Notes under the pieces: model-generated
Seen by the model: only the letters and a program-made list of their open reading frames with translations
Databases searched by the model: none
What the model was told of the DNA's origin: nothing
Origin: Polyangiales bacterium
GTDB lineage: Bacteria > Myxococcota_A > Polyangia > Polyangiales > Ga0077539
Direction: 5' to 3'
DNA: 45,726 nucleotides
Assembly (NCBI GenBank): GCA_046351555.1
Contig: JAXLYI010000029.1
Span: 1 to 45,726, forward strand
Part shown: positions 1 to 25,312 of the stretch, one piece after another
Numbering within the stretch: position 1 is the first letter of the stretch
Layout of the letters: every line of letters begins with the position of its first letter
Made by a program: the position numbers and the translations under genes

Positions 1-811
1 CGAAGCTGTGGCGGAGCGTGTGGCAGCTCGCGCGCTTCGCGATGCGGGCGGCCTTCACCGCGTCGCAGACGGCCTTCTGCATCGCGCTCTCGTGCAGGTG
101 GTGGAGCGCGAGGCGATCGGTCGCCGGGTCGACGCACGGGCGCGACGCGGGGAAGACGTACTGCCACGCGAGGCTGGTGGCGGCGCCGGGCATCTTCGCG
201 CGCAGGGCGTAGGGCAGGTCGACCTCGCCGCGTCCGGCGGCGAGCTCGGCTTCGTGACGTCGGGCGACGACGTCGAGCTGGGCGCGGAGGGCTTCGCTGG
301 CGCGGTTCGGCAGGAGCGCGGGGCGGTCGCGCTCGCCCTTCGCCCGGCGAACGGTGATCTGGCGGCGGTCGAAATCGACGTCCTTCACGCGCAGGGAGAC
401 GGCTTCGAGGAGGCGCAGGCCCGCGCCGTAGAGCAGCTCGCCGAGGAGGCGGAAGGGCGGGTCGAGGTGATCGAGCAGGGCCGTCACCTCCTGGCGCGAG
501 AGCACCGCGGGGAGGTGCGCGGGGCGGCGGGCGCGTTCGAGGCCGTCGAGCGCCGGCACGTCGAGTTCGAGCACCCTGCGGTAGAGGAACACCAGCGCGC
601 AGAGCGCCTGGTTCTGCGTCGAGGCCGAGGTGCGGCGGCGGACGGCGAGGTCGTTGAGGAACGCGGTGATCTCGGGGGCGCCGAGGTCGCGCGGGTGACG
701 GCGGCCGTGGAAGGCGATGAAGGCGCGGGTCCACTGGACGTACGCCTCCTCCGTGCGCGCGGCGTAGTGCAGGCGGCGGAGGGTGGTGCGGAGGGCTTCG
801 ATCAGCGTCAT
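1..811 (-). CDS. intI: Integron integrase IntI, 5' portion. The start codon is the complement of 809-811; the C-terminus lies beyond the window start.
   Basis: The reverse-strand translation reads MTLIEALRTTLRRLHYAARTEEAYVQWTRAFIAFHGRRHPRDLGAPEITAFLNDLAVRRRTSASTQNQALCALVFLYRRVLELDVP...LLYGAGLRLLEAVSLRVKDVDFDRRQITVRRAKGERDRPALLPNR...GEVDLPYALRAKMPGAATSLAWQYVFPASRPCVDPATDRLALHHLHESAMQ...CHTLRHSF. It is collinear with IntI1, including the integron-specific extra domain (ALPxAL...WxWxxVFP) that Xer recombinases lack, and box II HxxR is present. The six-frame track only shows the antisense shadow ORF 8..1066(+). Confidence 0.93.
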   Translation of the reverse strand, partial: MTLIEALRTTLRRLHYAARTEEAYVQWTRAFIAFHGRRHPRDLGAPEITAFLNDLAVRRRTSASTQNQALCALVFLYRRVLELDVPALDGLERARRPAHLPAVLSRQEVTALLDHLDPPFRLLGELLYGAGLRLLEAVSLRVKDVDFDRRQITVRRAKGERDRPALLPNRASEALRAQLDVVARRHEAELAAGRGEVDLPYALRAKMPGAATSLAWQYVFPASRPCVDPATDRLALHHLHESAMQKAVCDAVKAARIAKRASCHTLRHSF

Positions 812-953
812 GAGGGGGCTCCAGGCGCCGCCGGGTGCGAGACGGCGCGCGGGGTTATCGACGCCGCGCAGGAAATGGTGCGTCGGGGGAGCCTCGGTAC
901 TGGACGGATGGCGAGGGGCGCAGGCGGGCGTAGGGAGATCAGGGCGGGGGCGG

Positions 954-1040
954 CCGGCGGCCTAACACGCGGGTTACCGGGTTATCGCGCCGGAGCCGGC
1001 GGCCTAACAGGCGTGTTACGGGAATACCGACGGGTTAGGC
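954..1040 (+). other. attI recombination site with two IntI-binding direct repeats and the R core GTTAGGC
   Basis: The direct repeats are CCGGCGGCCTAACAcGCGgGTTACcGGG (about 954-982) and CCGGCGGCCTAACAgGCGtGTTACgGG (about 996-1023). Each contains the inverted core GCCTAAC (960-966 and 1002-1008). The core GTTAGGC lies at 1034-1040, with a second GTTRRRY (GTTAGAC) at 1054-1060. The site sits between divergent intI and the cassette genes, as in class 1 to 3 integrons. Confidence 0.75.
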
Positions 1041-1120
1041 AGTCGAAGATGATGTTAGACAGGTGAACTAGATGACAAACTTGCGAGGCGTCGCGGACGT
1101 CGGAAGGGTGTCGACTCGGA

Positions 1121-2038
1121 ATGACTACAATCGCACAGCAATTCCGGAACTTTAAACAACGTCTCGGCAATGTGAACGCCCACATCTGCATGGTGGATGC
1201 TGTTGTCGCGAATGCCCTCGAAAGTGCACAAGATACGGATACTCCAGAACGGTATCTGGAAGAACTAGCAAAGAAGCAGCAGCACTATCTTGGCTTCAAA
1301 CAAATCCCAGAGTTGCGCAAGCCGCTGGGTTCTTTCGGCATTGTGTTCCAACATCAGGTGCTCGAAGGCTTTTTGCAGGACCTCGAAGAGTATCTACGGG
1401 GGAAACCTTCGTACAATGCTATGGATCCCAATGGCACTGATCCTCGCCCGAAGGGGGAGGACATGCTGCGGCGCTTGGTCCGAAAGCTAGTTCTCCTGGC
1501 CAACAAGCAAGAGCTACCATTAAGTTACAAAGACGAGAACGAGCGAGATGCAGCGCTGCGCGAGGAGATCTTTTGTAGTACCGTCGGCAACGTCGAGACT
1601 CACCTGATGGAATACTATCGATTGGTTCGGAATGCCGCGGTGCATGCTGATATCGATCGAATCGCCGAGAATTATTACAAAGCCCACTTTGCGAGTATGC
1701 AGTCAACGCGCAATCAAACCGAATCGACACTTGAGCAAGGAGAGCCTCAGCGATTCACGCCGGAGAAGTTGACTCGTCTCTACAAGGCTAAGCCTTCAAG
1801 TGTCAATGCCATTTCAATTGAAGATATGATCCTGTATTCGCGGGTCATGCAGAAAGTCACACGGGCACTTCTGGTGATGGCACGTCCCGACATCGAGACC
1901 GAGATACTTCCCGTTCTGAGGAAATCGTTTTCCCGCTTTGAGAGTGAAGAACGTCGCAGGAAGGCTATCGTTGGAGCGTTGTGCACAGACTATCTGCTTG
2001 ACGCAAATGTGGCAAAGGAATATGCTTCTCGTGGCTGA
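1121..2038 (+). CDS. Cassette-encoded hypothetical protein with a HEPN-like Rx4H motif; putative RNase or abortive-infection-type effector
   Basis: This is a 305-aa ORF with an ATG start and low GC. The motif ...ETHLMEYYRLVRNAAVHADIDR... carries R-N-x3-H, which is the canonical HEPN Rx4-6H active-site signature with a polar residue after R. I recognise no other family. Confidence 0.6.
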   Translation: MTTIAQQFRNFKQRLGNVNAHICMVDAVVANALESAQDTDTPERYLEELAKKQQHYLGFKQIPELRKPLGSFGIVFQHQVLEGFLQDLEEYLRGKPSYNAMDPNGTDPRPKGEDMLRRLVRKLVLLANKQELPLSYKDENERDAALREEIFCSTVGNVETHLMEYYRLVRNAAVHADIDRIAENYYKAHFASMQSTRNQTESTLEQGEPQRFTPEKLTRLYKAKPSSVNAISIEDMILYSRVMQKVTRALLVMARPDIETEILPVLRKSFSRFESEERRRKAIVGALCTDYLLDANVAKEYASRG

Positions 2039-2133
2039 CTAGCTTAGCGGTAGAGCGCTTTCGTCTCAAGCCCATCTCCATCGGCGGTGGGTTTGAGAGG
2101 AAAGAGGCAGTGGTTCGACTCCTCTGTCAGCCG
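2033..2133 (+). ncRNA. tRNA-like element: class-I tRNA scaffold with anticodon loop GUCUCA (CUC, Glu-type), discriminator G and a 30-nt insertion between positions 37 and 38
   Basis: The acceptor stem is a perfect 7 bp, GGCUGAC (2033-2039) with GUCAGCC (2126-2132). U8 and A9 are present. The D-arm is GCUU/AGCGGUA/GAGC with A14 and GG. The anticodon stem is CUUUC (2058-2062) with GAAAG (2100-2104), and the loop begins G-U33-C-U-C-A37. Positions 2069-2098 are then inserted and pair back onto the anticodon (UCUCAAGCCC with GGGUUUGAGA). The variable loop is AGGC. The T-arm is AGUGG/UUCGACU/CCUCU with G53-C61 and T54-psi-C-R-A58. No CCA is encoded. The element overlaps the ORF1 stop codon (TGA 2036-2038). 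Confidence 0.5.
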
Positions 2134-2172
2134 ATCATCTGTGAATTGCGTTTTGCAACACCGTTTGGGTAC

Positions 2173-2263
2173 GTCTAACAAGCCGATGGTGCCGACCGCC
2201 CCCTCCTCACTCACCCGCTACCCACCTGCCCCGCTGCGGCGGCACATCGGCAGGCCGTTGGGC
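2173..2263 (+). repeat. attC site of cassette 1 (91 bp; R'' GTCTAAC ... R' GTTGGGC)
   Basis: The site is GTCTAAC-aagccgatgGtgccgACcgcc-[32-nt variable centre]-gctgcggcggcacatcggcaggcc-GTTGGGC. The flanking arms are imperfect inverted repeats with unpaired G and AC, the extrahelical bases typical of attC. R'' fits RYYYAAC and R' fits GTTRRRY. The conserved arms reappear at 4933-5023. Confidence 0.72.
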
Positions 2264-2323
2264 AGCTTCGGAGTACGACGCTGCGAATGAGCAGCAGAAC
2301 CTTACAGAAAAGGCTAGGCCCAC

Positions 2324-3721
2324 GTGAAGACTGACGTAAGCAGCCAACTTGTCGTAAACATAGATCGCAAACGGTACACCGCACTTTCAGGTCTGTGGAA
2401 GAGCCCATATGCCTCTGTTATGTCAGAGGAAATAGATTGGTATTCGAATACTGACGAGTCGATCTTAGCCGTTGTGCTGCACGACTATACAGATAACGAT
2501 TACGCGGCTGTTGTGTCGATGCGCGATCTGAGCGGACGATTCAGGGCCGTTGATGTACAAGTTTCCTTCGTTACGGTTGCCGCCGCTGTCGAGTGGCTTA
2601 CAAGTACGATTTGCTCACGGTCGGAGTCCGGCGAAAAACACCATCGACAGGGGGACGAGGTGCCGTCGCTCAATCTTTTCGATCCAGTAGTCCCGCAAGA
2701 GCGACTGCATCCAGGTTTCGTGCACCTCGCCAACGACCTCGCATTTTTGCCGGGGCGATCAATCATTCGAGAATTGATGCCTCATTATCATGACATCGAC
2801 GGGAACTTTGTCAGTCAGTTCCAATCAAGCGGGTTTGACGCGAGAACATGGGAACTGTATCTGTTCACCTACTTCAAAGAGGAGGAGTTATTCCTCGATC
2901 GAACTCATCGCTCCCCGGACTTTATTGTCAGCAAGTTTGATCGCAGCGTTGCCGTTGAGGCCGTTATTGTAGGCCGCCAGCTTGACAACCCACCGAAACG
3001 AGGAATTGTTAAGGCTCCCAAGTCTGCAACTGAAATTCAAGAACTGCAAAAAGATCTCATGCCAATCCGATTTGGCAGTCCACTGAACTCGAAGCTTCGA
3101 AAGAAATATTGGAGATCTCCGCATGTTCGTGGTTTGCCGCTCATCTTTGCGATAGCTGACTTCCATGATGATCAGTCTATGCTGTGGTCGTCGACAGCGC
3201 TGGGTAATTACCTTTATGGTTACCGTCATGAGCATTATTATGACGAATCTGGAACACTTGTCGTCAAACCAATCAAAATCAATTCGCACAAATTCGGCGA
3301 CAAAAAGATTCCCTCTGGTTTTTTCTTCTTGCCTGGTGCGGAGAACGTCAGCGCGGTGCTTTTCTCTGCTTCCGGGACGATTTCAAAGTTTAATCGGCTC
3401 GGACGCCAAGCGGGTTTTGCTCACCCTGGAGTGAGAATGTTTCGCAGAGGAACTCTGCACGATCACGACCCGAACGCTTCAGTGCCGCACATCTTCAGTT
3501 ACGAAGTGGATGAAACGAGTGAGGAAACGTGGGGTGAGGGGCTTTCGATGTTTCATAACCCGAAAGCTAAGTTTCCAGTCCCGCGGGAGCTTTTTCCGAG
3601 CATCGCCCATCACTATTTCGAAGATGGCCACATCAGAAGTGTTCTGCCGGAGATCTTTGTATATTCGTCGACCACGATTCACATGATTGCTCGCGACGAC
3701 GGAGGGGAGGAAAATGCATAG
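2324..3721 (+). CDS. Cassette-encoded hypothetical protein (465 aa) with a possible PD-x(n)-E nuclease-like patch
   Basis: The ORF starts at a GTG and has low GC with no good RBS. The segment ...WELYLFTYFKEEELFLDRTHRSPDFIVSKFDRSVAVEAVIVG... resembles the E ... PD ... (D/E)x(K) core of restriction-endonuclease-fold enzymes, but the K is not evident. I recognise no other family. Confidence 0.55.
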   Translation: MKTDVSSQLVVNIDRKRYTALSGLWKSPYASVMSEEIDWYSNTDESILAVVLHDYTDNDYAAVVSMRDLSGRFRAVDVQVSFVTVAAAVEWLTSTICSRSESGEKHHRQGDEVPSLNLFDPVVPQERLHPGFVHLANDLAFLPGRSIIRELMPHYHDIDGNFVSQFQSSGFDARTWELYLFTYFKEEELFLDRTHRSPDFIVSKFDRSVAVEAVIVGRQLDNPPKRGIVKAPKSATEIQELQKDLMPIRFGSPLNSKLRKKYWRSPHVRGLPLIFAIADFHDDQSMLWSSTALGNYLYGYRHEHYYDESGTLVVKPIKINSHKFGDKKIPSGFFFLPGAENVSAVLFSASGTISKFNRLGRQAGFAHPGVRMFRRGTLHDHDPNASVPHIFSYEVDETSEETWGEGLSMFHNPKAKFPVPRELFPSIAHHYFEDGHIRSVLPEIFVYSSTTIHMIARDDGGEENA

Positions 3722-3783
3722 ACAGAGCGCTGCCGTCGGCGAAATTGATTTTCTTGATTCGCTGTTTGTGCTAGCTTTGCTGC

Positions 3784-3876
3784 GTGACCTAGCTGAATGT
3801 GCCTAACTCAGTTCAGCTTGGCGCCGCAGCAATGTGTGATGCGTTAGATCTGATCCGCACATGAATGCTAGGTCAC
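3784..3876. repeat. 93-bp imperfect palindrome in the ORF2-ORF3 intergenic region with embedded integron core-like motifs
   Basis: GTGACCTAGC (3784-3793) is the exact reverse complement of GCTAGGTCAC (3867-3876). The inner arms share ATGTGC/GCACAT. The centre is GGCGCC. GCCTAAC lies at 3801-3807 and GTTAGAT at 3843-3849. Confidence 0.5.
3801..3849 (+). repeat. Possible short or degenerate attC-like site (R'' GCCTAAC ... R' GTTAGAT)
   Basis: GCCTAAC fits RYYYAAC and GTTAGAT fits GTTRRRY. GCCTAAC also pairs almost perfectly with G+TTGGGC, which is the R' this cassette would carry when circular. However, the site is only 49 bp, its internal L arms are not complementary, and it is unlike the uniform 91-bp attC family. 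Confidence 0.3.
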
Positions 3877-3944
3877 ACTACCCCCTTCTTACATCACCGC
3901 CCCAACCGCCGCTCTCTAGCCGCGAAGCTTGAGTCAGGAGCACT

Positions 3945-4904
3945 GTGACTACCAAGCGACAAGAGGCTGTCGGTCTCAACCACGTTTCGCGTATTGTTCA
4001 AGTTTCGTGGTCAAGCGGATGGCAGGGAATTGACCCGCAGAACGATGACGCAGTTGATGGGGTCGTGTTCTTTCGTCAGCGAGATCGCGACACCGGGCAA
4101 ATTGCGTTTGTGCAGGTGAAGTCAGGACCGAGTTACTATCGCGAATGGAAGACGTCGCCTGATGTAGTTGGTGTGCAACTGGGCGAAGACTATATCAACA
4201 AACATCGTCCCCGCTGGAACTCACTGCCAGGGCCTGTTGTTTTGGTCTATGTTCTCGAGAGAGAAAAGAAGAAACCACTGTCATGGTGGGCGGATCTTCG
4301 ATGCGAGGAGTCGTACTCGCTCACGAACAAGCAGGTTGTCTTGCTTCAGAGGCACAACACGTTTGGTCCTCACTCGAAGGGGCATATCCGGCGACTAGCT
4401 AAAGCCGTTACGCTAGATTTGCCGACTATTGTCGCGCGGCGTCGAGATATCAACCTGAGTCCCCTTGGACACCAGTTCAAGTCCGCAATTCGGCAGGCTT
4501 ATGTTGATTGGGGGCATGCTGTAAATGCGGAGCGCGCTCACCCTACACTCGGAGTTGTGGAGGTATCGCGTGTTGGATGGCGCCACATAACTCGGCTTGG
4601 CCGCCGTCCAGAGCGTATTATTCATAGCTTGCATCTGCTTGGAATAGCTCGCCAGATGATCGTCCACGGGGGAAGCGTCAGTCCCATCGGACGAGCAAAG
4701 AGCCAGACGAGAGCGAACGGAGCACACGAGGTGCTGGACTACCTCGCACTTCGAGCCAATGTCGTATTTCCTCATCGAGGTCCGGCAATTGTGCAGGTCG
4801 TATTGCGCCGCAAGCGGATGATAGGCAAAAACGGAACGACGTCGCAACGATTGTGGTTTTACTCTGTGTACGAGTTGGGCCGTTCAACGCATAGATCGGC
4901 CTAA
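3945..4904 (+). CDS. Cassette-encoded protein with an N-terminal Mrr/Cap4-like PD-(D/E)xK nuclease domain (DUF4365/DUF4297-like) and an unknown C-terminal half
   Basis: The ORF starts at GTG 3945, preceded by AGGAG (3936-3940) at 4-nt spacing. The N-terminus ...GWQGIDPQNDDAVDGVVFFRQRDRDTGQIAFVQVKSG... has the D-x(n)-(Q/E)xK arrangement of the Mrr/Cap4 restriction-endonuclease fold. The protein is 319 aa and GC is about 52%. Confidence 0.6.
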   Translation: MTTKRQEAVGLNHVSRIVQVSWSSGWQGIDPQNDDAVDGVVFFRQRDRDTGQIAFVQVKSGPSYYREWKTSPDVVGVQLGEDYINKHRPRWNSLPGPVVLVYVLEREKKKPLSWWADLRCEESYSLTNKQVVLLQRHNTFGPHSKGHIRRLAKAVTLDLPTIVARRRDINLSPLGHQFKSAIRQAYVDWGHAVNAERAHPTLGVVEVSRVGWRHITRLGRRPERIIHSLHLLGIARQMIVHGGSVSPIGRAKSQTRANGAHEVLDYLALRANVVFPHRGPAIVQVVLRRKRMIGKNGTTSQRLWFYSVYELGRSTHRSA

Positions 4905-4932
4905 GGAAGGCTCAGGGTATCTTGACGCAACT

Positions 4933-5023
4933 GCCCAACAAGCCGATGGTGGCGACCGCCCCCACTGCTGCCGTCGAACAAGCACCTGGCCTACTGCGGC
5001 GCCACATCGGCCAGCCGTTCGAC
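4933..5023 (+). repeat. attC site (91 bp; R'' GCCCAAC ... GTTCGAC) closing the low-GC cassette block
   Basis: The site is GCCCAAC-aagccgatggtgGcgaccgcc-[variable centre]-tgcggcgCcacatcggcCagcc-GTTCGAC. Its arms are nearly identical to attC1 (2173-2263) and it has the same 91-bp length. The centre is variable, as in attC families of chromosomal integrons. Confidence 0.7.
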
Positions 5024-5037
5024 GAAGACATGACCCG

Positions 5038-5565
5038 ATGATCGACTCGCAGCAGGTCGCCCTCGAGGCGGCAACGCCGCGCGATGCCGCGCTGCTCTCG
5101 AACCTCCTGGAGCTGTACGCCTACGACCTCAGCGAGACCTTCGCGTTGGAGCTGGGGGCCGACGGGCGCTTCGGCTACGACAAGCTGCCGCTCTACTGGT
5201 CGGAGCCCGAGCGGCGGTTCCCCTTCCTCATTCGCTGGGGCGCTCGGGTCGTCGGCTTCGCCCTGGTCACGCGCGGCTCGCCGGCGTCGGACGATCCCGA
5301 CGACTTCGATGTCGCCGAGTTCTTCGTCGTTCGTCGGCACCGCCGCTCCGGTGTGGGCCGACGGGCGGCCTTCCTGCTCTGGGATCGCTTTGGCGTGCGT
5401 TGGGTCGTCCGCGTCTCCGAAGGGAACCGCGGCGGCCGCGCCTTCTGGGCGAGCGCCACCTCCGAGTACGCGGGCGGCGCGGTGGTCGAGACCACGCGTC
5501 CCGGCGGCCTGCACGCATGGCGCGTGTTCTCGTTCGACAGTCGCACTCGGAAGGTGGCCGTCTGA
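5038..5565 (+). CDS. GNAT-family N-acetyltransferase
   Basis: The 175-aa protein reads MIDSQQVALEAATPRDAALLSNLLELYAYDLSE...FPFLIRWGARVVGFALV...VAEFFVVRRHRRSGVGRRAAFLLWDRFGV, which carries the acetyl-CoA binding R/Q-x-x-G-x-G/A pattern. GC is high and host-like. It starts 15 bp after the last attC. Confidence 0.75.
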   Translation: MIDSQQVALEAATPRDAALLSNLLELYAYDLSETFALELGADGRFGYDKLPLYWSEPERRFPFLIRWGARVVGFALVTRGSPASDDPDDFDVAEFFVVRRHRRSGVGRRAAFLLWDRFGVRWVVRVSEGNRGGRAFWASATSEYAGGAVVETTRPGGLHAWRVFSFDSRTRKVAV

Positions 5566-5629: not shown

Positions 5630-6067
5630 GTGACCCCTTCTCTTTCGGATCTGCTGACGCTGCCGACGCCCGACGGCTGGCGCCGGATCCCGGTTCCGTC
5701 GGGGTGGGGATTCGCGCCGACGGTCGACGTTGCCGCGTACGGCGAACACCACGAGGACCTCCCCCTCACCGTCCTCGTTGCGAGGCTCTCGACGGACCCG
5801 ACGGGTTCGCCCGCGCGCACCCTCTCGGACTTGATGGACCGTCGCGTTCGCCGCGGTGAACCCGCCTGGCGCTCGGACCACATCGCGGGCGTCCCCGTTG
5901 TCGCGTGCGCCTGGGCCGAGGACGGCGTGGAGCGCTTCACCTGGTTCGTGCCGTTCTCGTCTGGTGTGATCGTGGAGTTTCAAGCGGTTCGTTTGCGTTC
6001 ATCGACGTGCGGCTCGCCGTTGCAAGAGGCGGCTCGTCCGATCTTGGACGCGGTCGTCTGGAGGTAG
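5630..6067 (+). CDS. Hypothetical protein (about 145 aa)
   Basis: A GTG-initiated frame with a consistent GC3 bias (...DGWRRIPVPSGWGFAPTVDVAAYGEHHEDLPLTVLVARL...). The overlapping longer ORFs (5084..6067+, 5267..5983-) look like shadows. The start is uncertain. Confidence 0.4.
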   Translation: MTPSLSDLLTLPTPDGWRRIPVPSGWGFAPTVDVAAYGEHHEDLPLTVLVARLSTDPTGSPARTLSDLMDRRVRRGEPAWRSDHIAGVPVVACAWAEDGVERFTWFVPFSSGVIVEFQAVRLRSSTCGSPLQEAARPILDAVVWR

Positions 6068-6820: not shown

Positions 6821-9445
6821 TCAGTGGAGCGCGGGCGGCGCGGCGCTGTCGCGCGGCGGGAGCGAGTGGCGCGCCGGCGGGTGCTCGCGCACGTAGCGAG
6901 TGGCCTTCTCCACGTCGAGCGGCGGCGCGATGGCGTAGCCCTGCGCCACGTCGCACCCGAGCGCGCGGAGCGTCATGAGCTGCGCGTCGTCCTCGACCCC
7001 CTCGGCCACCACGGTGAGCCGCAGCGCGCGGGCGAGCTCGATGATCGAGCGGACGAGCGCCGCGGCGGAGCGGTCGCCGGTGCGGAGGCCGTCGGTGAGC
7101 CCGCGGTCGATCTTCACCTCCTCGGCGGGGAACTGCCGGAGGTACGCGATGGAGGCGTTGCCCGCGCCGTAGTCGTCGATGGAGACGTGGACGCCGAGGG
7201 CGCGGATGCGCGCGAGGAGGCGGGCGCCGCGGTCGGGGTCGGTCATCACGGCCGTCTCGGTGAGCTCGACGACGAGGCGCGAGGGCGCGATGTTGTGCGC
7301 GCGGAGCATCGCGGCGACGTCGTCGACGAAGCCCGCCTCGTGGAGCTGCCGCGGCGAGACGTTGACCGCCATGCGGAGGCGCGAGGGGCCGTGGAGATCA
7401 TCCCAGCGGGCGAGCTGCGCGAGGGCGTGGTCGAGCACCCAGGCGCCGATGGGGACGATCTGCCCGGTCTCCTCGGCGAGCGGGATGAAGCGGCCGGGGG
7501 GGATGGCGCGGCCGTCGGGGCGGTTCCACCGGGCGAGGGCCTCGACGCCGACGAGGGCGCCGTCGGCGACGCGCACCTTGGGCTGGTACGCCAGCGAGAA
7601 CTCCCCGCGCGCGATCGCCTCGTCGATCTCCGCGCGGAGCTCGACCTTCCCGCGGATCGCGTCGCCCATCGCGCTCTCGAAGCGCACCGCGCGGCCGCGG
7701 CCCTGGCGCTTGGCCTCGTAGAGCGCGATGTCCGCGTCGCGCAGCGCGTCGTCGGCCGCGTCGCCCGGCAGCGCCCGCCGCACCCCGACGCTCGCCCCGA
7801 GCGTGAACGACATCGCGTGGACCGCCACCGGCTCGCGCAGCGCCTCCACCACCGCCTCGGCCACGCGCTCGCCCTCGCCCTCGCCGCGCGCCTCCACCAC
7901 CGCGACGAACTCGTCGCCCCCGAGGCGGCCGATCCAGCGGTCGTCGCGCTCGCCGAGGACGGCCTCCATGCGCCGGGCGACGGTGGCGAGCACCGCGTCG
8001 CCCGCGGCGTGGCCGAAGGAGTCGTTGACCTCCTTGAAGCCGTCGAGGTCGATGAGGAGCACCGCGAGGGCTCTCCCCTCGGCGAGCCACGCCGCGAGCC
8101 GCGCGCGGAGCGTGGCGCGGTTGGGCAGGCCCGTGAGCGGGTCGACCGTGGCGAGGCGGTGGAGGGCGTCGACGTCGTGCGCGTTGAGCACCAGGCCCGC
8201 GACGTCGGGGTCGTCGCAGAGGTCGGTGACGCGGAGGTGGAAGTGCCGCAGCGCGCCGTCGACGCGGAGGCGGAGGTCGACCTCGGCGCGGTGGTCGGCG
8301 GACGACTGGGCGGCGGCGAAGGCGCGGCGGAGCTCGGCGAGGTCCGCAGGGTGGCAGGCCCGTTCGAAGCCGTCGGCGCTGACGGCGAGGCCGAGGCGCG
8401 AGGCGGTGGCGGGGGCCATTTCGACGACGGTTCCTTCGGGGAGGACGATGGCGACGACGTCGAGGGCGCCGGCGGACATCGTGCCGAGCGTGCGGGCGTG
8501 GGAGAGGGCGGCGTCGCGGACGAGCGACACGCAGCGGGCGCCGAAGAGCAGGGTGAGGGCCGCGCTCGACGCCATGCTCACGTGCGGGTCGAGGGCGCCG
8601 AGGAAGCCCGCCACGCCGGGCGCCGCGGTGGCGAGGGCGAGCAGGGCGACGCGGGCCCCGTTGCTCCGCCGGGGCATGAGGTTGAGCCGGACGAGGTCGC
8701 CCATCGACGGGTGCCACACCGACACGGCCACCGAGGCGCACGCGACGATGAGCGTCGCGGCGGTGAGCGCGTCGGGCCCGCGCTGCGCGAGGCGCCCGGA
8801 GAGCGTCCCGAGGTCGGAGACGAAGGAGAAGGTGGCGAACGAGAGGAGCGCGTAGAGCGACACGGGGCGCCGGCGCGCCATGGTGACGAGGGAGAGGGTG
8901 ACGGTGAAGGTCACGAGGTCGCCGGTGGGGTACACCAGCAGCGCGAGGCGGACGTCGACGGGGAGGGCGCGCGCCACGCGGTCGAACACGACGGCCCAGA
9001 CGAGCGCGGCCCCCGCGACGCCGACGATGAGCGCGTCGATGAGGACGAAGCGCGCGAAGCGGCGGTTGTTGACGCGCCCGAACGTGAGGATGGAGTCGAC
9101 CGCCATCACGTAGGCGAGCGCGAAGGCGACGTCACCGAGGCCGACGTCGCGCCCGCCGATGGTGTTGCCGCTCTGGCGGAAGAAGCACGCGAGCCCCGCG
9201 ACGCTGAGCCCGAGCGCGACGAGGTAGCGCGAGAGGGCCGGGCGGAGCGGCGGGGCGCGGCGCCAGGCGACCGCCACGGCCACGGCGCTCCCCACGAAGC
9301 ACGCGGTGATGAGCGGGTCGCGGGCCGACTCGGCGAAGTACGCCGTGAGGGACATCGCGCCGGCCGCCCACGCGAACACGCGCCACGCTCGCGCACGCGG
9401 CGCGGCGCCCGCCTCCGGGGGCGCGTCGGGCGGTCGGCTCGGCAC
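6821..9445 (-). CDS. Membrane-anchored GGDEF-EAL protein (diguanylate cyclase/phosphodiesterase)
   Basis: The 874-aa protein has an N-terminal multi-TM region and a GGDEF domain (RLGGDEFVAV). Its EAL domain shows ELTE, DDYGAG and EGVED motifs. Confidence 0.9.
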   Translation of the reverse strand: MPSRPPDAPPEAGAAPRARAWRVFAWAAGAMSLTAYFAESARDPLITACFVGSAVAVAVAWRRAPPLRPALSRYLVALGLSVAGLACFFRQSGNTIGGRDVGLGDVAFALAYVMAVDSILTFGRVNNRRFARFVLIDALIVGVAGAALVWAVVFDRVARALPVDVRLALLVYPTGDLVTFTVTLSLVTMARRRPVSLYALLSFATFSFVSDLGTLSGRLAQRGPDALTAATLIVACASVAVSVWHPSMGDLVRLNLMPRRSNGARVALLALATAAPGVAGFLGALDPHVSMASSAALTLLFGARCVSLVRDAALSHARTLGTMSAGALDVVAIVLPEGTVVEMAPATASRLGLAVSADGFERACHPADLAELRRAFAAAQSSADHRAEVDLRLRVDGALRHFHLRVTDLCDDPDVAGLVLNAHDVDALHRLATVDPLTGLPNRATLRARLAAWLAEGRALAVLLIDLDGFKEVNDSFGHAAGDAVLATVARRMEAVLGERDDRWIGRLGGDEFVAVVEARGEGEGERVAEAVVEALREPVAVHAMSFTLGASVGVRRALPGDAADDALRDADIALYEAKRQGRGRAVRFESAMGDAIRGKVELRAEIDEAIARGEFSLAYQPKVRVADGALVGVEALARWNRPDGRAIPPGRFIPLAEETGQIVPIGAWVLDHALAQLARWDDLHGPSRLRMAVNVSPRQLHEAGFVDDVAAMLRAHNIAPSRLVVELTETAVMTDPDRGARLLARIRALGVHVSIDDYGAGNASIAYLRQFPAEEVKIDRGLTDGLRTGDRSAAALVRSIIELARALRLTVVAEGVEDDAQLMTLRALGCDVAQGYAIAPPLDVEKATRYVREHPPARHSLPPRDSAAPPALH

Positions 9446-15932: not shown

Positions 15933-18002
15933 CTATGGCTCCGGGGCGCGCGCGGAGGGCGTCGGCGCGAGGGGCATCGCGCGCTCGTCGGCCCACTCCG
16001 CGTGGAGCGACGACGTGCGGTGCGGCCGCACCGTGACGATGAACTCCCGCGCCCCCGCGTGCTCCGACGACACCACGCGGACGCTGTACACGCCCGGCGA
16101 GAGCGCGACCTCCGCGAGCGGCGTGTGCCCGAGCGAGCGGCTCCCGATGAACACCTCCGCCGGCGCCGTCGCCGTGACGTTGAGGAGGCCGGGCACGCTG
16201 CGGTCGTCGGTCGCGGTGTCGCCAGGGTCTTCGGCGGGCGCGTCTTGATGGTGACGGCGCGTGCGCGCGGGCGCGGCGTCGGGCGTGGCGAGAGTTGCGG
16301 CGTCGGGCGTGGCGAGCGCCGCGGCGTCTGGCGCGGCGGGCGACGACGCTGCGGGCGCGGGCGGTGTGGGCGCCTGCACGGCGGGGGACGGCGGCGCGGG
16401 CGCGGGCGTGAGGGCGCGGTGCGCGGTGGAGACGGGGCGCCGGGGCGTCGGCTTGTCGAACCACGCGATGTGGGCGAAGAGCCCGCCGAGCACCATGAGC
16501 CCGACGAGGTAGAAGGGGACGTCCCAGCGGCTGCGGCGCGGCGGCGCGACGTAGGGGACGCTCGGCCGCTCGACGGGCGCGGGCGTGAGGCCGGGGGGCG
16601 TCTCGCGCGGGATCGCGGGGCGGCGCGGCGGGGGCGGCGTGGCGCCCGAGCGCGCGGCCACGAGGCGTCGCGTGGCGGCGTTGTCGTCGACCGACAGCGG
16701 AGTCGCGGCGCGGCGGACGAGCGCGCGCCCTTCGGGGATCGACGCGCGGCGCGTGAGCGGGATCGCCTCGTCGCGCGGGAGCGTCTGCGGGGCGCGCGCG
16801 GTGGCGTCGGGGTCGTCGAGCAGCGGGATGCGCGGCGGGGGGTCGGGCGGCGTCGGGCGCACGGCCGCGGGCGCGGGCTCGGGTCGCGCGACGGCGCTCG
16901 GGACGGGCAGGCCGAGGTCGAGGCCGGGCACGTCGGGGTCGTCGCCCGACGCGGCGCGAAGCGGCGCCGACTGCCACGCGCTCACCAGGTCGCGGAAGGC
17001 GGGGTCGTGCTGGCGGAGGAAGCGGTCGCGCCACGCGATCTGGTCGGCGAAGAGCGCCTGCATGAACTCACCGACCTCGGTGGCGCCCGCGGGGCGGCCC
17101 GAGGTGAGGAGCCACGCCTCGAGGGCGCGGCAGAGCTCCTGCGCGGTCTGGTAGCGCTTCGTGAGGTCGCGCTCGAGGGAGCGCATCACGATGGCCTCGA
17201 GGTCGCGGGGGTAGTCGGCGACGAGGCGCGACGGCGGGGTGATCGGGTCGCGGGTGATGGCGAAGACGGTGGCGGCGTCGGTCTGGCGGCGGAAGAGACG
17301 TCGCCCGACGGTCACCTCCCAGAGCACCACGCCGAGGGCCCAGACGTCGGTGCGGCGGTCGACGCGGCGCTCGTGGAGCTGCTCGGGGGACATGTACGCC
17401 AGCTTGCCCTTGAGCTCGCCGGTGGTGGTGCGCTCGTGGAGCTGGTCGTCGGAGCGGGCGACGCCGAAGTCGACGACCTTGGCGCTGCCGGAGTAGGTGA
17501 CGAAGACGTTCTCGGGGGAGACGTCGCGGTGGACGACGTGGGCGTTGCCGCCGTCGTCGCCCTTGAGCTCGTGGGCGTAGTGGAGGCCGCGCGCGGCGTC
17601 GGCGACGAGGCGCACGCCGAGCTCGCGCGGGAGGGCACCCTGGGCGCTCCACGCGCGGCGCGCGACGTTGCCGAGCGTCTCGCCGTGCAGGTACTCCATC
17701 GCGAGGTAGTACCGCCCGTCGTCCTCGCCGAAGTCGAACACGGTGCAGAGGTTGGGGTGGTCGAGCCGCGCCGCGATCCGCGCCTCGTCGAGGAACATCT
17801 CCACGAAGCGCGGCTCCGCGGCGATGTTCGGGTGGATGATCTTGAGCGCCACCCACTTGCTGAAGCCCGACGCGGCCTCGAGGCGCGCGAGGTACACCGA
17901 CGCCATGCCGCCCTGCGCGATGCGGTAGCAGACGCGGTAGCGCCCGATCCGCGGGACCTCCGCGTCGGCCCGTGCTCCAGGGCGTTCGGGGTGCGGGTTC
18001 AT
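15933..18002 (-). CDS. Ser/Thr protein kinase with a TM segment, a Pro/Ala-rich linker and a C-terminal PEGA-like domain
   Basis: The 689-aa protein has the kinase motifs GGMASVYLA, VALK, HRDVSPENVFV, DFGVAR and SPEQ. A TM helix reads YLVGLMVLGGLFAHIAW. The linker contains ATPDAA repeats. Confidence 0.9.
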   Translation of the reverse strand: MNPHPERPGARADAEVPRIGRYRVCYRIAQGGMASVYLARLEAASGFSKWVALKIIHPNIAAEPRFVEMFLDEARIAARLDHPNLCTVFDFGEDDGRYYLAMEYLHGETLGNVARRAWSAQGALPRELGVRLVADAARGLHYAHELKGDDGGNAHVVHRDVSPENVFVTYSGSAKVVDFGVARSDDQLHERTTTGELKGKLAYMSPEQLHERRVDRRTDVWALGVVLWEVTVGRRLFRRQTDAATVFAITRDPITPPSRLVADYPRDLEAIVMRSLERDLTKRYQTAQELCRALEAWLLTSGRPAGATEVGEFMQALFADQIAWRDRFLRQHDPAFRDLVSAWQSAPLRAASGDDPDVPGLDLGLPVPSAVARPEPAPAAVRPTPPDPPPRIPLLDDPDATARAPQTLPRDEAIPLTRRASIPEGRALVRRAATPLSVDDNAATRRLVAARSGATPPPPRRPAIPRETPPGLTPAPVERPSVPYVAPPRRSRWDVPFYLVGLMVLGGLFAHIAWFDKPTPRRPVSTAHRALTPAPAPPSPAVQAPTPPAPAASSPAAPDAAALATPDAATLATPDAAPARTRRHHQDAPAEDPGDTATDDRSVPGLLNVTATAPAEVFIGSRSLGHTPLAEVALSPGVYSVRVVSSEHAGAREFIVTVRPHRTSSLHAEWADERAMPLAPTPSARAPEP

Positions 18003-24251: not shown

Positions 24252-25312
24252 TCCTTGTCCGCGCTCTTGTCGAGCTTCACGGGCTTCTCCGCGGGCTTGT
24301 CCGCCGCCTTCGCGCCGCGGCCGCCCTTCGCGTCGCCGTCGGTGGTGAGCTGGCGGAACACCTCCTCGAGCTGGAGCGTCTCGCGCCGCAGCTCGAGCAG
24401 CGCCCAGCCCTTCTGCACGGCCATCTGGAAGAGCTCGCGGCGCGCGTCGCCGCTGCCCTTCACCGTCGCCTCCACCGTGATCGACTTCCCGTCGCCCGGC
24501 AGGTCCTTCACGGCGGCGGACGGGAGCACCTTCTTGATCGCCTCGGCGACCTCGTCGTGGCCCTTCGGCGCCTTGTCGTCGGACCCGAGGCCCTGCTTGT
24601 CGTCGAAGGCGAGGCGGTAGCGCACGCTCCCCGAGCCCGCGCGGAGGTCGTCCGGCGCGCCGTCGGCGACGATCTTCCCGCGGCTCACGATCAGCACGCG
24701 CGCGCAGGCCGCCTCGACCTCGGCGAGGTCGTGGGTCGACAGCATGACCGTGCGCGTCTTGCCGATCTCCTTGATGTACTTGATGACCTCGGCGCTCTCG
24801 TTGGGGTCGAGGTCGGCCGTCGGCTCGTCGAGGATCAGGATCGGCGGGTCGTGGATCAGCGCCTGCGCGAGGCCCACGCGCTGCCGGTAGCCGAAGGAGA
24901 GCTGGCCGATCTCCTTGCGCAACGCGTCCTCCAGGCCGCAGATGCCGACGACCTTCTTGATGCGGTCGCGCTGCTCGGACTTCGGGATCGCGCGCAGGTC
25001 GGCGGCGAACTCGAGGTACTCGACCACGCCCATCTCGGGGTAGAGCGCCGCGCGCTGCGGCAGGTACCCGAGGACGGAGCGGACCTCCAGCGGGCTGTTG
25101 AAGACGTCGAACCCGCCCACCGTCGCCGTCCCCGAGGTCGGCGAGATGAAGCAGGTGAGGATCTTCATCGTGGTGGACTTGCCCGCCCCGTTGGGACCGA
25201 GGAAGCCCACGACCTCGCCCCGCTTGATCTCGAAGTTCAGGTTGTCGACGGCGCGCTGCGTCCCATAGACCTTCGTCAGGTCGCGCGCCTCGATCATCAC
25301 ATCGGTGGCCAT
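24248..25312 (-). CDS. ABC transporter ATP-binding protein (GldA-like)
   Basis: The protein has Walker A GPNGAGKST, the signature LSFGYRQRV and Walker B ILILDEPT. It is 354 aa with a C-terminal extension. Confidence 0.9.
   Translation of the reverse strand: MATDVMIEARDLTKVYGTQRAVDNLNFEIKRGEVVGFLGPNGAGKSTTMKILTCFISPTSGTATVGGFDVFNSPLEVRSVLGYLPQRAALYPEMGVVEYLEFAADLRAIPKSEQRDRIKKVVGICGLEDALRKEIGQLSFGYRQRVGLAQALIHDPPILILDEPTADLDPNESAEVIKYIKEIGKTRTVMLSTHDLAEVEAACARVLIVSRGKIVADGAPDDLRAGSGSVRYRLAFDDKQGLGSDDKAPKGHDEVAEAIKKVLPSAAVKDLPGDGKSITVEATVKGSGDARRELFQMAVQKGWALLELRRETLQLEEVFRQLTTDGDAKGGRGAKAADKPAEKPVKLDKSADKE

What the first reader, a model, noticed from the sequence alone, without database searches (positions are those of the whole stretch)
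1..5023. Integron platform (intI, attI and a cassette array) in a roughly 70% GC Myxococcota-like chromosome
The minus-strand translation of 1-811 is unmistakably IntI. It is collinear with IntI1 from the N-terminus (RRLHYAARTEEAYVQWTRAFIAFHG) through the integron-specific insertion (VDLPYALRAKMPGAATSLAWQYVFPASRP) to box II (HTLRHSF). Directly upstream of the gene start, and divergent from it, lie two 27-bp direct repeats carrying the inverted core GCCTAAC. The core GTTAGGC follows at 1034-1040. Downstream, co-oriented low-GC genes are separated by sites of the form RYYYAAC...GTTRRRY with imperfect inverted arms. This is the full architecture of a functional integron. Integrons are poorly documented in this lineage, and the six-frame track hides the integrase behind an antisense shadow ORF.
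Basis: partly seen in the sequence, partly recalled or inferred. Interest (0 to 1): 0.8.

Follow-up and report, generated by a model that had tools for sequence, protein, structure and literature searches.

The report
Polyangiales integron carrying defence cassettes
This is a real but ordinary chromosomal integron from a Polyangiales (myxobacterial) genome, already partly annotated in GenBank; the unexpected part is its first cassette, which pairs a predicted HEPN ribonuclease with a conserved tRNA-shaped RNA that I found described nowhere.

Summary
Window 1-811(-) encodes the first 270 residues of an integron integrase, cut by the contig end. GenBank already names this protein 'integron integrase, partial [Polyangiales bacterium]'. 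An attC covariance model built only from 22 attC sites of unrelated integrons puts 2173-2263 (32.3 bits, E 2e-6) and 4933-5023 (26.6 bits, E 5e-5) first in the whole 45.7-kb window, both on the + strand. Each cassette begins with the exact complement of its own attC inverse core.

Three corrections follow:
- The attI crossover is most likely G1054|TT, not 1034-1040.
- There are two cassettes, not three. The ORF2/ORF3 junction is not an attC.
- The lineage is not poorly documented. More than 100 relatives at 67-96% identity exist, including annotated Sorangium integron integrases.

Both cassettes look like anti-phage cargo. Cassette 2 carries PD-T7-1 plus a DUF4365 protein.

Cassette 1 is the real interest. 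It holds an uncharacterised HEPN-like protein with an invariant RNxxxH motif. A 101-nt tRNA-like RNA sits at or just past the stop codon; its anticodon loop is replaced by a long helix. The pair is conserved in all nine loci examined, with strong covariation, in integron cassettes or beside defence genes. A toxin/RNA-antitoxin-like defence module is my inference, not a shown function.

The parts
1..811 (-). intI: integron integrase, N-terminal 270 of about 316 residues, cut by the contig end at window position 1
   Evidence: TIGR02249 at 310.5 bits against a cutoff of 265. VchIntIA 2a3v at E 2.6e-55, including the IntI-specific extra domain. Identical to NCBI MFO0608303.1 'integron integrase, partial'. 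dN/dS about 0.29-0.38 against L002 and L003.
812..1054 (+). intI-attI intergenic region and attI. It has 35-nt direct repeats at 953-987 and 995-1029, each with GCCTAAC followed by GTTAYC/GTTACG-type motifs; GTTAGGC at 1034-1040; and the inferred crossover at G1054|T1055.
   Evidence: Repeats. In an alignment with the attI regions of L002 and L003, their GATG|TTGGGC junctions fall on GATG|TTAGAC at 1051-1060. Function as IntI binding sites is inferred.
1055..2257 (+). Cassette 1 (1203 nt): ORF1, tRNA-like RNA and attC1. Its first bases, TTAGAC, together with the preceding G are the exact complement of its attC R'' GTCTAAC.
   Evidence: Sequence; attC model.
1121..2038 (+). ORF1, 305 aa: an uncharacterised, all-helical, HEPN-like protein with the R170-N-A-A-V-H175 motif
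1998..2026 (+). Sigma-70-like promoter (TTGACG-17-TATGCT) inside the 3' end of ORF1. It ends 6 nt before the 5' end of the tRNA-like RNA.
   Evidence: Consensus scan. TTGNNN-17-TAYNYY can be read at the same position in seven of the eight other loci shown, even where the encoded residues differ. Function is inferred.
2033..2133 (+). tRNA-like RNA, 101 nt: acceptor, D and T arms, with the anticodon loop replaced by a helix of about 13 bp plus a loop. The ORF1 stop codon lies inside its acceptor stem.
   Evidence: Rfam tRNA at 44.9 bits against a gathering score of 29, with a 37-nt insert. ARAGORN calls nothing. MFE -54.6 kcal/mol, z -5.9. In nine loci, 15 pairs change on both sides and 93% of cells pair, against 41-51% in slid controls. 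Own model: 90-111 bits on the + strand, 23-34 bits on the - strand.
2173..2263 (+). attC1, 91 nt: R'' GTCTAAC, 5-nt spacer, L'' GAT[G]GTGCCG[A]CCGC with two extra bases on the 5' arm, variable centre, L', R' GTTGGGC
   Evidence: Independent attC model at 32.3 bits, E 1.7e-6, best hit in the window. Same layout as the 22 training attCs. Bottom-strand fold.
2258..5017 (+). Cassette 2 (2760 nt): ORF2, ORF3 and attC2. It begins TTGGGC, the exact complement of its own attC2 R'' GCCCAAC.
   Evidence: Sequence; attC model.
2324..3721 (+). ORF2, 465 aa: PD-T7-1 family anti-phage defence protein
   Evidence: PADLOC PDLC04073 PD-T7-1 at E 1.4e-181 over residues 12-455. Homologues on Klebsiella, Sulfitobacter and other plasmids.
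3777..3849 (+). Intergenic hairpin (21-nt arms at 3777-3797 and 3812-3832, with GCCTAAC in the loop) followed by GTTAGAT at 3843-3849. Not an attC; possibly a remnant.
   Evidence: Inverted repeat I2. DNA fold z -3.2 for 3770-3885. attC model 11.9 bits, E 0.35.
3945..4904 (+). ORF3, 319 aa: N-terminal DUF4365 domain (nuclease-like according to the PADLOC hit name) plus an unassigned C-terminal half
   Evidence: Pfam PF14280 at E 1.6e-20. Weak PADLOC hit to Aga_REase. Homologues annotated as DUF4365 on plasmids, none shown next to a PD-T7-1 homologue in the listed hits.
4933..5023 (+). attC2, 91 nt, last site of the array: R'' GCCCAAC, R' GTTCGAC
   Evidence: Independent attC model at 26.6 bits, E 5.2e-5, second-best hit in the window. 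One compensatory C-G to G-C change relative to attC1.

Best explanation
Window 1-5023 is one end of a chromosomal integron in a Polyangiales bacterium.

Platform and array: a divergently oriented integron integrase gene, truncated only because the contig stops, faces an attI region with repeated IntI-type binding motifs. Two cassettes were inserted there by IntI-mediated attI x attC recombination at G|TT. Each cassette starts with the six bases that complement the inverse core of its own attC. This is what a circular cassette opened at its attC leaves behind. The array ends at 5023, where host-like 70% GC sequence (a GNAT gene) resumes.

Cargo: the cargo has a foreign composition and looks like anti-phage defence. 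Cassette 2 carries a PD-T7-1 gene and a DUF4365 nuclease-like gene. Cassette 1 carries a two-part module, a HEPN-type predicted RNase and a tRNA-shaped RNA without an anticodon loop.

Proposed mechanism for cassette 1 (inference, about 45%): the RNA is made from its own promoter inside the end of the gene. It binds the HEPN protein as a tRNA-like pseudo-substrate and holds it inactive, like a type III antitoxin. Loss of the RNA during infection would free the RNase to cut tRNA or mRNA.

Shown here: integrase identity, attC sites, cassette boundaries, foreign composition, PD-T7-1 membership, the HEPN-like fold and motif, and the RNA structure and its linkage to the gene.
Inferred: integrase activity, the attI crossover, the promoter, RNase activity, the RNA-protein interaction and any defence phenotype.
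For: - IntI; purifying selection.
- attC: a model trained on 22 attCs from unrelated integrons finds exactly 2173-2263 and 4933-5023 as the top two hits, full length, + strand only. The same model finds attCs beside intI in Polyangiales MAG L003 and in Sorangium sp. So ce429.
- The same 91-nt attC family occurs in L003 and at the start of L146.
- Boundary complementarity is 7/7 for both cassettes.
- The attI junction aligns with those of L002 and L003.
- Composition.
- PD-T7-1.
- HEPN.
- tRNA-like RNA: found in 9 of 9 loci examined.
- The module is itself a cassette in L143 and L146. Elsewhere it lies beside type I R-M and Bub genes, BREX with GmrSD, or Cas3.
- Integron cassettes are known to encode phage defence (bioRxiv 10.1101/2024.07.02.601719).
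Against: - The integrase C-terminus (second His and catalytic Tyr) is not in the sequence, so activity is unknown.
- No + strand sigma-70-like Pc promoter was found between intI and cassette 1. The scan does not cover non-sigma-70 promoters.
- The four attCs of this family give only one compensatory pair, and shuffles do not separate them from chance covariation.
- The 3' spacer of these attCs is 8 nt, against 5-6 nt (once 8) in the training set. The first extra base is G on the top strand, which is the minority state there.
- Cassette 2 is unusually long and has two genes.
Confidence: 0.9

Rival explanations
1. The element is a decayed or inactive integron remnant. The integrase is non-functional in the real genome and the two cassettes are fixed, so nothing recombines any more.
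For: The C-terminus cannot be seen. The array is short. The last R' is the atypical GTTCGAC. Cassette 2 looks like a fusion with a dead internal site at 3801-3849.
Against: The 270 visible codons are intact and 96% identical to a full-length 316-aa relative. dN/dS is 0.29-0.38. Four of the six catalytic positions (R133, K158, H264, R267, by alignment to VchIntIA) are present. Both attCs score well and keep exact R''/R' complementarity.
Confidence: 0.15
2. It is not an integron but a genomic island or prophage remnant inserted next to an ordinary XerC/D-like or phage tyrosine recombinase. On this view the 'attC' sites are chance palindromes.
For: A low-GC island next to a tyrosine recombinase is also what an integrative element looks like. 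A tRNA-like sequence lies inside it.
Against: The integron-specific model scores far above XerC/XerD models: 310 bits against 61-94 bits. The IntI extra domain is present. The attC model hits are the two best in 91 kb of searched strand and are homologous to attCs beside another IntI. The tRNA-like element is not an att site, because it travels with ORF1 in nine different contexts.
Confidence: 0.02
3. Cassette 1 alternative: the tRNA-like structure is a cis-acting 3' element of the ORF1 mRNA, not a trans-acting partner of the protein. It could be an RNase P/RNase Z processing signal or a stabiliser that sets the mRNA 3' end or removes the stop codon. In that case it would control ORF1 expression or insulate it from downstream cassettes.
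For: The element abuts or overlaps the stop codon in every locus, and the stop lies inside the acceptor stem in three of nine. It has tRNA acceptor and T-arm features that RNase P recognises (established knowledge of RNase P substrates).
Against: The position of the stop relative to the element varies, from 9 nt upstream to read-through into the loop. A conserved promoter-like site sits just upstream of the element. Both strands of the extended helix are conserved in sequence (GUCUCAAGCC / GGUUUGAGAGG), which suggests specific recognition.
Confidence: 0.3
4. Cassette 1 alternative: the element is a decaying or intron-containing genuine tRNA gene that merely hitch-hikes.
For: It scores above the Rfam tRNA gathering score in five loci.
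Against: Position 36 of the would-be anticodon loop covaries with position 66 (C-G to A-U in L142), so it is paired. The helix is conserved across loci whose proteins are only 40% identical. ARAGORN calls no tRNA. None of the nine copies encodes a 3' CCA directly after the discriminator base.
Confidence: 0.03

Closest known systems
Sedentary chromosomal integrons (Vibrio cholerae superintegron, VchIntIA/VCR; Xanthomonas integrons)
   Same: Divergent intI, attI, and attC sites that are homogeneous within the lineage (91 nt, conserved arms, variable centre). Cassettes are AT-richer than the host. The cargo is of toxin-antitoxin or defence type. IntI is collinear with VchIntIA, including the extra domain.
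   Different: Only two cassettes are visible. The attC 3' spacer is 3 nt longer than the 5' spacer. The first extra base is G on the top strand. One cassette is 2.76 kb with two genes. The host is a 75% GC Polyangiales bacterium.
Integrons of Sorangium and other Polyangiales (PGAP 'integron integrase' of Sorangium sp. So ce429, So ce542 and S. cellulosum)
   Same: Same IntI clade: 316 aa, 68-74% identity. attCs lie beside intI in So ce429.
   Different: Different cassettes. The attCs of So ce429 are about 61-65 nt, not 91 nt. I found no dedicated study of this clade in the searchable library.
Phage-defence integron cassettes (bioRxiv 10.1101/2024.07.02.601719, 'Mobile Integrons Encode Phage Defense Systems')
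   Same: A compact defence gene packaged as a cassette. PD-T7-1 is a recognised defence family.
   Different: Here the integron is chromosomal and environmental. No phenotype has been tested.
AbiF (Abi_2, HEPN) with the RCd22 RNA antitoxin, and type III toxin-antitoxin systems (PMC12373285)
   Same: A HEPN-type toxin candidate is paired with an adjacent structured non-coding RNA. The proposed neutralisation is by direct RNA-protein binding.
   Different: No sequence similarity to Abi_2. The RNA lies downstream, is single-copy and is tRNA-shaped, not an abiF motif or a tandem repeat. Nothing has been tested experimentally.
Bacterial Y RNA YrlA and other tRNA mimics (tmRNA tRNA-like domain, viral TLS); comparison from my own knowledge
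   Same: RNA with acceptor, T and D features of tRNA but no decoding anticodon loop.
   Different: No match to any Rfam family other than tRNA at E up to 10. There is no Ro60/Rsr or RtcB neighbour. The termini are at the acceptor stem. The partner is a HEPN-like protein.

Membership tests
Integron (IntI + attI + attC cassettes) | Tyrosine recombinase of the IntI subfamily with the IntI-specific additional domain | tested here: met
   TIGR02249 at 310.5 bits against a cutoff of 265. The insertion LPYALRAKMPGAATSLAWQYVFPA aligns to VchIntIA 199-222.
Integron (IntI + attI + attC cassettes) | Complete catalytic set R-K-H-R-H-Y | tested here: inconclusive
   R133, K158, H264 and R267 are present by alignment to VchIntIA (residue roles from established knowledge). 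The final His and Tyr lie beyond the contig end. They are present in the 96%-identical P0012.
Integron (IntI + attC cassettes) | attC sites: R''-L''...L'-R' imperfect palindrome with extra bases on the R''/L'' arm, recognised by an attC covariance model | tested here: met
   Home-built model from 22 unrelated attCs: 32.3 and 26.6 bits, E 1.7e-6 and 5.2e-5, top two hits, + strand only. Layout is 7+5+3+extra+6+extra, as in the training sites. IntegronFinder's own model was not available.
Integron (IntI + attC cassettes) | The cassette 5' end (TTRRRY) complements the R'' of the same cassette's attC | tested here: met
   Cassette 1: GTTAGAC at 1054-1060 against GTCTAAC at 2173-2179. Cassette 2: GTTGGGC at 2257-2263 against GCCCAAC at 4933-4939. 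Both are 7/7.
Integron (IntI + attC cassettes) | attI next to intI, with cassettes divergent from intI | tested here: met
   intI is on the - strand and the cassettes on the + strand. The repeats and junction are conserved with L002 and L003. The exact crossover (1054 or 1034) is inferred.
Integron (IntI + attC cassettes) | Pc promoter driving the array | tested here: inconclusive
   No + strand sigma-70-like site lies between 600 and 1121. Myxobacterial promoters may not fit the scan.
HEPN superfamily RNase (ORF1) | Four-helix HEPN fold with an Rx4-6H motif | tested here: met
tRNA (Rfam RF00005) | Cloverleaf with a 7-nt anticodon loop able to decode | tested here: not met
   Acceptor, D and T arms are present (44.9 bits). 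The anticodon loop is replaced by a covarying helix. ARAGORN is negative.
Type III toxin-antitoxin system | RNA antitoxin that binds and inhibits its protein toxin, classically as tandem repeats processed by the toxin | not testable with these tools
   There are no tandem repeats here. Only co-occurrence (9 of 9 loci) and a promoter-like site are shown.
PD-T7-1 defence family (ORF2) | Full-length match to the PADLOC PD-T7-1 profile | tested here: met
   E 1.4e-181, residues 12-455 on profile positions 3-448 of 452.

The most novel reading that the evidence does not exclude
Cassette 1 is an undescribed two-component system, possibly an immune or toxin-antitoxin module. It pairs a new family of HEPN RNases with a dedicated tRNA-shaped RNA whose anticodon loop is sealed into a helix. 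The RNA would act as a non-cleavable tRNA decoy that keeps the RNase off until infection. The whole protein-plus-RNA unit moves between genomes as an integron cassette. This would make it an integron cassette whose cargo includes a structured non-coding RNA gene. A full-text search for 'tRNA-like', 'integron' and 'cassette' together returned no paper.
Probability: 0.4. Interest if true: 0.8.

Novelty: new member of a known kind. Interest (0 to 1): 0.5.

Why it matters
The integron adds little on its own. It is one more chromosomal integron in a clade whose integrases are already annotated, and it fits the current view that integron cassettes store anti-phage genes.

It is useful in two ways. 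First, it shows a host-type, 70% GC attC attached to genes of clearly foreign composition (GC3 about 0.55 against 0.9). This bears on the open question of where cassettes are made.

Second, it exposes a compact protein-plus-RNA module. A HEPN-like protein and a tRNA mimic are found together in all nine loci where the DNA could be read. At least three of those are integron cassettes (the window, L143 and L146), and others lie beside R-M, BREX or Cas genes. If the RNA is a tRNA-like inhibitor or sensor for a HEPN nuclease, that would be a new way of controlling an abortive-infection RNase. It would also show that cassettes can carry functional RNA genes, which cassette surveys based on ORFs would miss.

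Tried and rejected
1. A first attC model built from the arms only (26+26 nt, R1) missed both real sites and matched only R-box pairs at 1002-1040 and 3801-3849. This was a method artefact, because long loops were forced through local ends. I replaced it with a model built on full-length attCs (R2).
2. My simple anchored arm-complementarity score ranked the attI repeats as high as attC1, so I abandoned it as a test. It served only to harvest training sites, at a threshold where shuffled sequence gave 0 hits.
3. I rejected 3801-3849 as a third attC.
4. I could not recover the integrase C-terminus. The only contig found by exact look-up of ORF1 is a 1176-nt fragment identical to the window. The NCBI variant of ORF1 is not on record, and the source contig ends at intI.
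5. A protein-pattern scan of JGI metagenomes for ORF1 relatives found none. A DNA-pattern scan for the RNA's conserved 20-mer gave 55 loci, all chance matches in GC-rich coding sequence. The viral collection gave none.
6. ORF1 has no tblastn match in the plasmid or phage collections. It has no Pfam, NCBIfam, PADLOC or PDB sequence-level match, even for distant relatives.
7. The afdb50 fold library was unavailable.
8. I rejected a reading as a tRNA with an intron or as a suppressor tRNA, because the 'anticodon' positions covary as a helix.
9. No further attC lies downstream of 5023. The next best hit, 24503-24591, scores 14.9 bits and lacks AAC/GTT.

Full report
**What is there**

The minus strand of window 2-811 translates without a stop into 270 residues. 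These score 310.5 bits on NCBIfam TIGR02249 'integron integrase', above the 265-bit cutoff even though the protein is truncated. XerC, XerD and XerA models score only 61-94 bits. The sequence aligns collinearly with the crystallised Vibrio cholerae integrase VchIntIA (2a3v, E 2.6e-55), including the IntI-specific insertion (LPYALRAKMPGAATSLAWQYVFPA against LPTALKEKYPNAPYEFRWHYLFPS), and ends at HTLRHSF. By that alignment, four of the six catalytic positions are present (R133, K158, H264, R267). The roles of these residues come from established knowledge of VchIntIA.

The protein is exactly NCBI MFO0608303.1, 'MAG: integron integrase, partial [Polyangiales bacterium]', on a 165,768-nt contig. 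So the truncation is a contig end, not a lesion, and the gene is already annotated. A 96%-identical relative (P0012, 316 aa) continues ...[31 protein letters not shown]... and therefore has the second His and the Tyr. Close relatives in Polyangiales and Myxococcota MAGs do the same. Against two of these relatives dN/dS is 0.29 and 0.38.

**Lineage**

The best genome matches are Polyangiales and Myxococcota MAGs at 73-85% identity. The protein database holds more than 100 relatives at 67-96% identity. Nearly all are 316 aa. They include proteins that PGAP names 'integron integrase' in Sorangium sp. So ce429 and So ce542, and a Sorangium cellulosum cluster of 77 sequences. PMC9668308 lists Myxococcota among phyla with integron attCs, and PMC12772301 describes an integron integrase in Myxococcota MAGs. 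'Poorly documented' is only true in the sense that I found no dedicated study.

**attC sites**

Sites 2173-2263 and 4933-5023 are both 91 nt. They align without gaps to each other and to two 91-nt sites in the cassette array of MAG L003, whose IntI is 74% identical. The arms are almost invariant and the central ~36 nt are variable. The proposed pairing holds in 90% of cells, against 25-51% when the partner is slid. With only four sequences there is a single compensatory change, and shuffles do not distinguish it from chance.

For an independent test I harvested attC sites from the cassette side of integrons in other phyla. These loci were fetched with the IntI query. I used a motif-plus-arm score at a threshold where shuffled sequence gave no hits. 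I aligned 22 full-length sites, none from the window or from Polyangiales, and built a covariance model with the canonical R''/L''/L'/R' pairing.

With filters off, over both strands of the whole window, the two best hits are 2173-2263 (+) at 32.3 bits (E 1.7e-6) and 4933-5023 (+) at 26.6 bits (E 5.2e-5). Neither site appears on the minus strand among hits up to E 10. The same model finds the L003 site and three sites in Sorangium sp. So ce429, two of them on the cassette side of its intI.

The layout matches the training sites: R''(7) + spacer(5) + 3 bp + extra base + 6 bp + extra A. The first extra base is G, as in two Chloroflexota sites. Only the 3' spacer (8 nt) is longer than usual. An earlier arms-only model missed these sites, which was a flaw in that model's design.

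**Cassette boundaries and attI**

A cassette opened at G|TT of its attC carries at its 5' end the six bases that pair with its own R''. Cassette 2 starts TTGGGC (2258), and its attC2 R'' is GCCCAAC, a 7/7 complement of GTTGGGC. The R'' of attC1 is GTCTAAC, whose exact complement GTTAGAC lies at 1054-1060.

The attI regions of L002 and L003 align so that their GATG|TTGGGC junctions fall on GATG|TTAGAC at 1051-1060. I therefore place the attI crossover at G1054|T1055 and cassette 1 at 1055-2257. Upstream lie the 35-nt direct repeats (953-987 and 995-1029, 83% identity). Each carries GCCTAAC followed by GTTAYC/GTTACG-type motifs. I take them to be accessory IntI binding sites, by analogy with DR1 and DR2 of attI1 (from memory, not tested). 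No sigma-70-like Pc promoter was detected.

**Two cassettes, not three**

The GCCTAAC...GTTAGAT pair at 3801-3849 scores 11.9 bits (E 0.35) with only the R boxes aligned, and it does not fold. Because attC2 matches the start at 2258, ORF2 and ORF3 were last mobilised as one 2760-nt cassette. In the plasmid hits that were listed, homologues of the two genes occur in different records. So this may be a fusion, with the 3777-3832 hairpin as a remnant, but that is unresolved. Nothing attC-like follows 5023. From there GC returns to about 70% and a host-like GNAT gene begins (GC3 0.89).

**Cargo**

ORF2 (2324-3721) is a full-length PD-T7-1 family member (E 1.4e-181). ORF3 (3945-4904) has an N-terminal DUF4365 domain. 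ORF1 (1121-2038) matches no family in any library.

**The tRNA-like RNA of cassette 1**

Rfam's tRNA model matches 2033-2133 (+) at 44.9 bits (gathering score 29), with 37 nt in place of the 7-nt anticodon loop. ARAGORN calls nothing. The match starts inside the last sense codon of ORF1, and the stop codon lies in the acceptor stem.

ORF1 has only 11 close homologues among 5.8 billion proteins. In every homologue locus whose DNA could be fetched (eight distinct loci besides the window), the same element sits at or over the stop codon.

On the nine sequences, the cloverleaf with an extended 'anticodon' helix pairs in 93% of cells, against 41-51% when slid. Fifteen pairs change on both sides, and no shuffle out of 500 reaches the observed covariation. 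Position 36 of the would-be anticodon covaries with position 66, so it is helical, not a loop. Both strands of the proximal helix are conserved in sequence (GUCUCAAGCC / GGUUUGAGAGG). A model of the RNA finds it only next to ORF1 homologues in 1 Mb of fetched loci, at 90-111 bits on the sense strand and 23-34 bits on the antisense strand.

A TTGACG-17-TATGCT site ends 6 nt before the RNA. TTGNNN-17-TAYNYY can be read at the same place in seven of the eight other loci shown, even where the encoded residues differ.

**ORF1 is HEPN-like**

**Context of the module**

It lies directly after a type I R-M operon and next to Bub genes (L085). It lies near BrxL, PglZ and GmrSD (L144), beside Cas3 and GSU0053 (the contig of P0004), and beside a RelA_SpoT-like gene (the contig of P0009).

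It is also an integron cassette elsewhere. L143 has a 43.6-bit attC just upstream. L146 opens with the 3' arm of a Polyangiales-type attC and has attC hits after the RNA (16 bits) and after the next gene (30.5 bits). L142 has a degenerate attC arm downstream.

**Mechanism**

I commit to the integron reading at 0.9.

For cassette 1 my best guess, at about 0.45, is a type III-like arrangement. The tRNA-shaped RNA would be a non-cleavable pseudo-substrate that holds a HEPN RNase inactive. The precedent is AbiF with its RCd22 RNA (PMC12373285). The main rival, at about 0.3, is a cis-acting RNase P/Z-type 3' processing element. None of this has been tested.

Full-text searches for HEPN or integron together with tRNA-like RNA, or for tRNA mimic and RNA antitoxin terms, found no description of such a system. 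Those searches cover open-access literature only.

**Verdict**

The finding is real and correctly interpreted, but the integron itself is ordinary and partly annotated already. The value lies in the corrected anatomy and in the HEPN plus tRNA-like RNA cassette.

Noticed in passing
window 1121-2133 (+); also L082, L084, L085, L142-L147: A HEPN-like protein gene is followed, at or over its stop codon, by a tRNA-shaped RNA. The RNA has acceptor, D and T arms, but its anticodon loop is replaced by a helix of about 13 bp. The pair is conserved in 9 of 9 loci with strong covariation, and I found no description of it in the searchable literature.
   Followed up: yes
window 1998-2026 (+): A promoter-like TTGACG-17-TATGCT lies inside the last 40 nt of ORF1 and ends 6 nt before the RNA. 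TTGNNN-17-TAYNYY can be read at the same place in seven of the eight homologous loci shown, even where the codons differ, which suggests dual coding.
   Followed up: partly
window 2173-2263 and 4933-5023 against 1121-4904: The attC sites are about 70% GC and belong to a Polyangiales-specific 91-nt family (also in L003 and L146). The genes they flank have GC3 0.53-0.56, against 0.89-0.95 for host genes. So host-type recombination sites sit on genes of foreign composition.
   Followed up: partly
window 3777-3849: A 21-nt-arm hairpin has GCCTAAC in its loop, followed by GTTAGAT, between PD-T7-1 and the DUF4365 gene. It fails the attC model. It could be a remnant of a fused cassette boundary, a terminator or a regulator.
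   Followed up: partly
L143 37-123; L146 1-30, 1131-1218, 2372-2456; L142 about 1380-1420: The HEPN plus tRNA-like module is flanked by attC sites in other metagenomic contigs, from at least two different attC families. So it circulates as an integron cassette. In other loci it sits beside type I R-M with Bub genes, BREX with GmrSD, or Cas3.
   Followed up: partly
L148 (Sorangium sp. So ce429 chromosome CP150342.1) 5694-5755, 8776-8836, 17743-17807: A cultured Sorangium carries a complete intI with attC hits on its cassette side. One further hit lies on the far side of intI, near BrnT/BrnA and a reverse transcriptase gene. The cassette-side genes include an isochorismatase, a GST and a P450.
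   Followed up: no
window 8-1066 (+): A 352-aa antisense 'shadow' ORF covers intI and attI.
   Followed up: yes
window 5038-5565 (+) and 6821-9445 (-): Immediately after the array comes a host-composition GNAT acetyltransferase gene. The Pfam match is borderline (20.6 bits against a cutoff of 20.7). It is followed by an 874-aa ORF whose translation shows GGDEF- and EAL-type motifs by eye; this was not scanned.
   Followed up: no
window 847-885: The block GGGGTTATCGACGCCGCGCAGGAAATGGTGCGT, just upstream of the intI start, is conserved with L002. It may be the intI promoter or an operator. No LexA-type box was identified.
   Followed up: no
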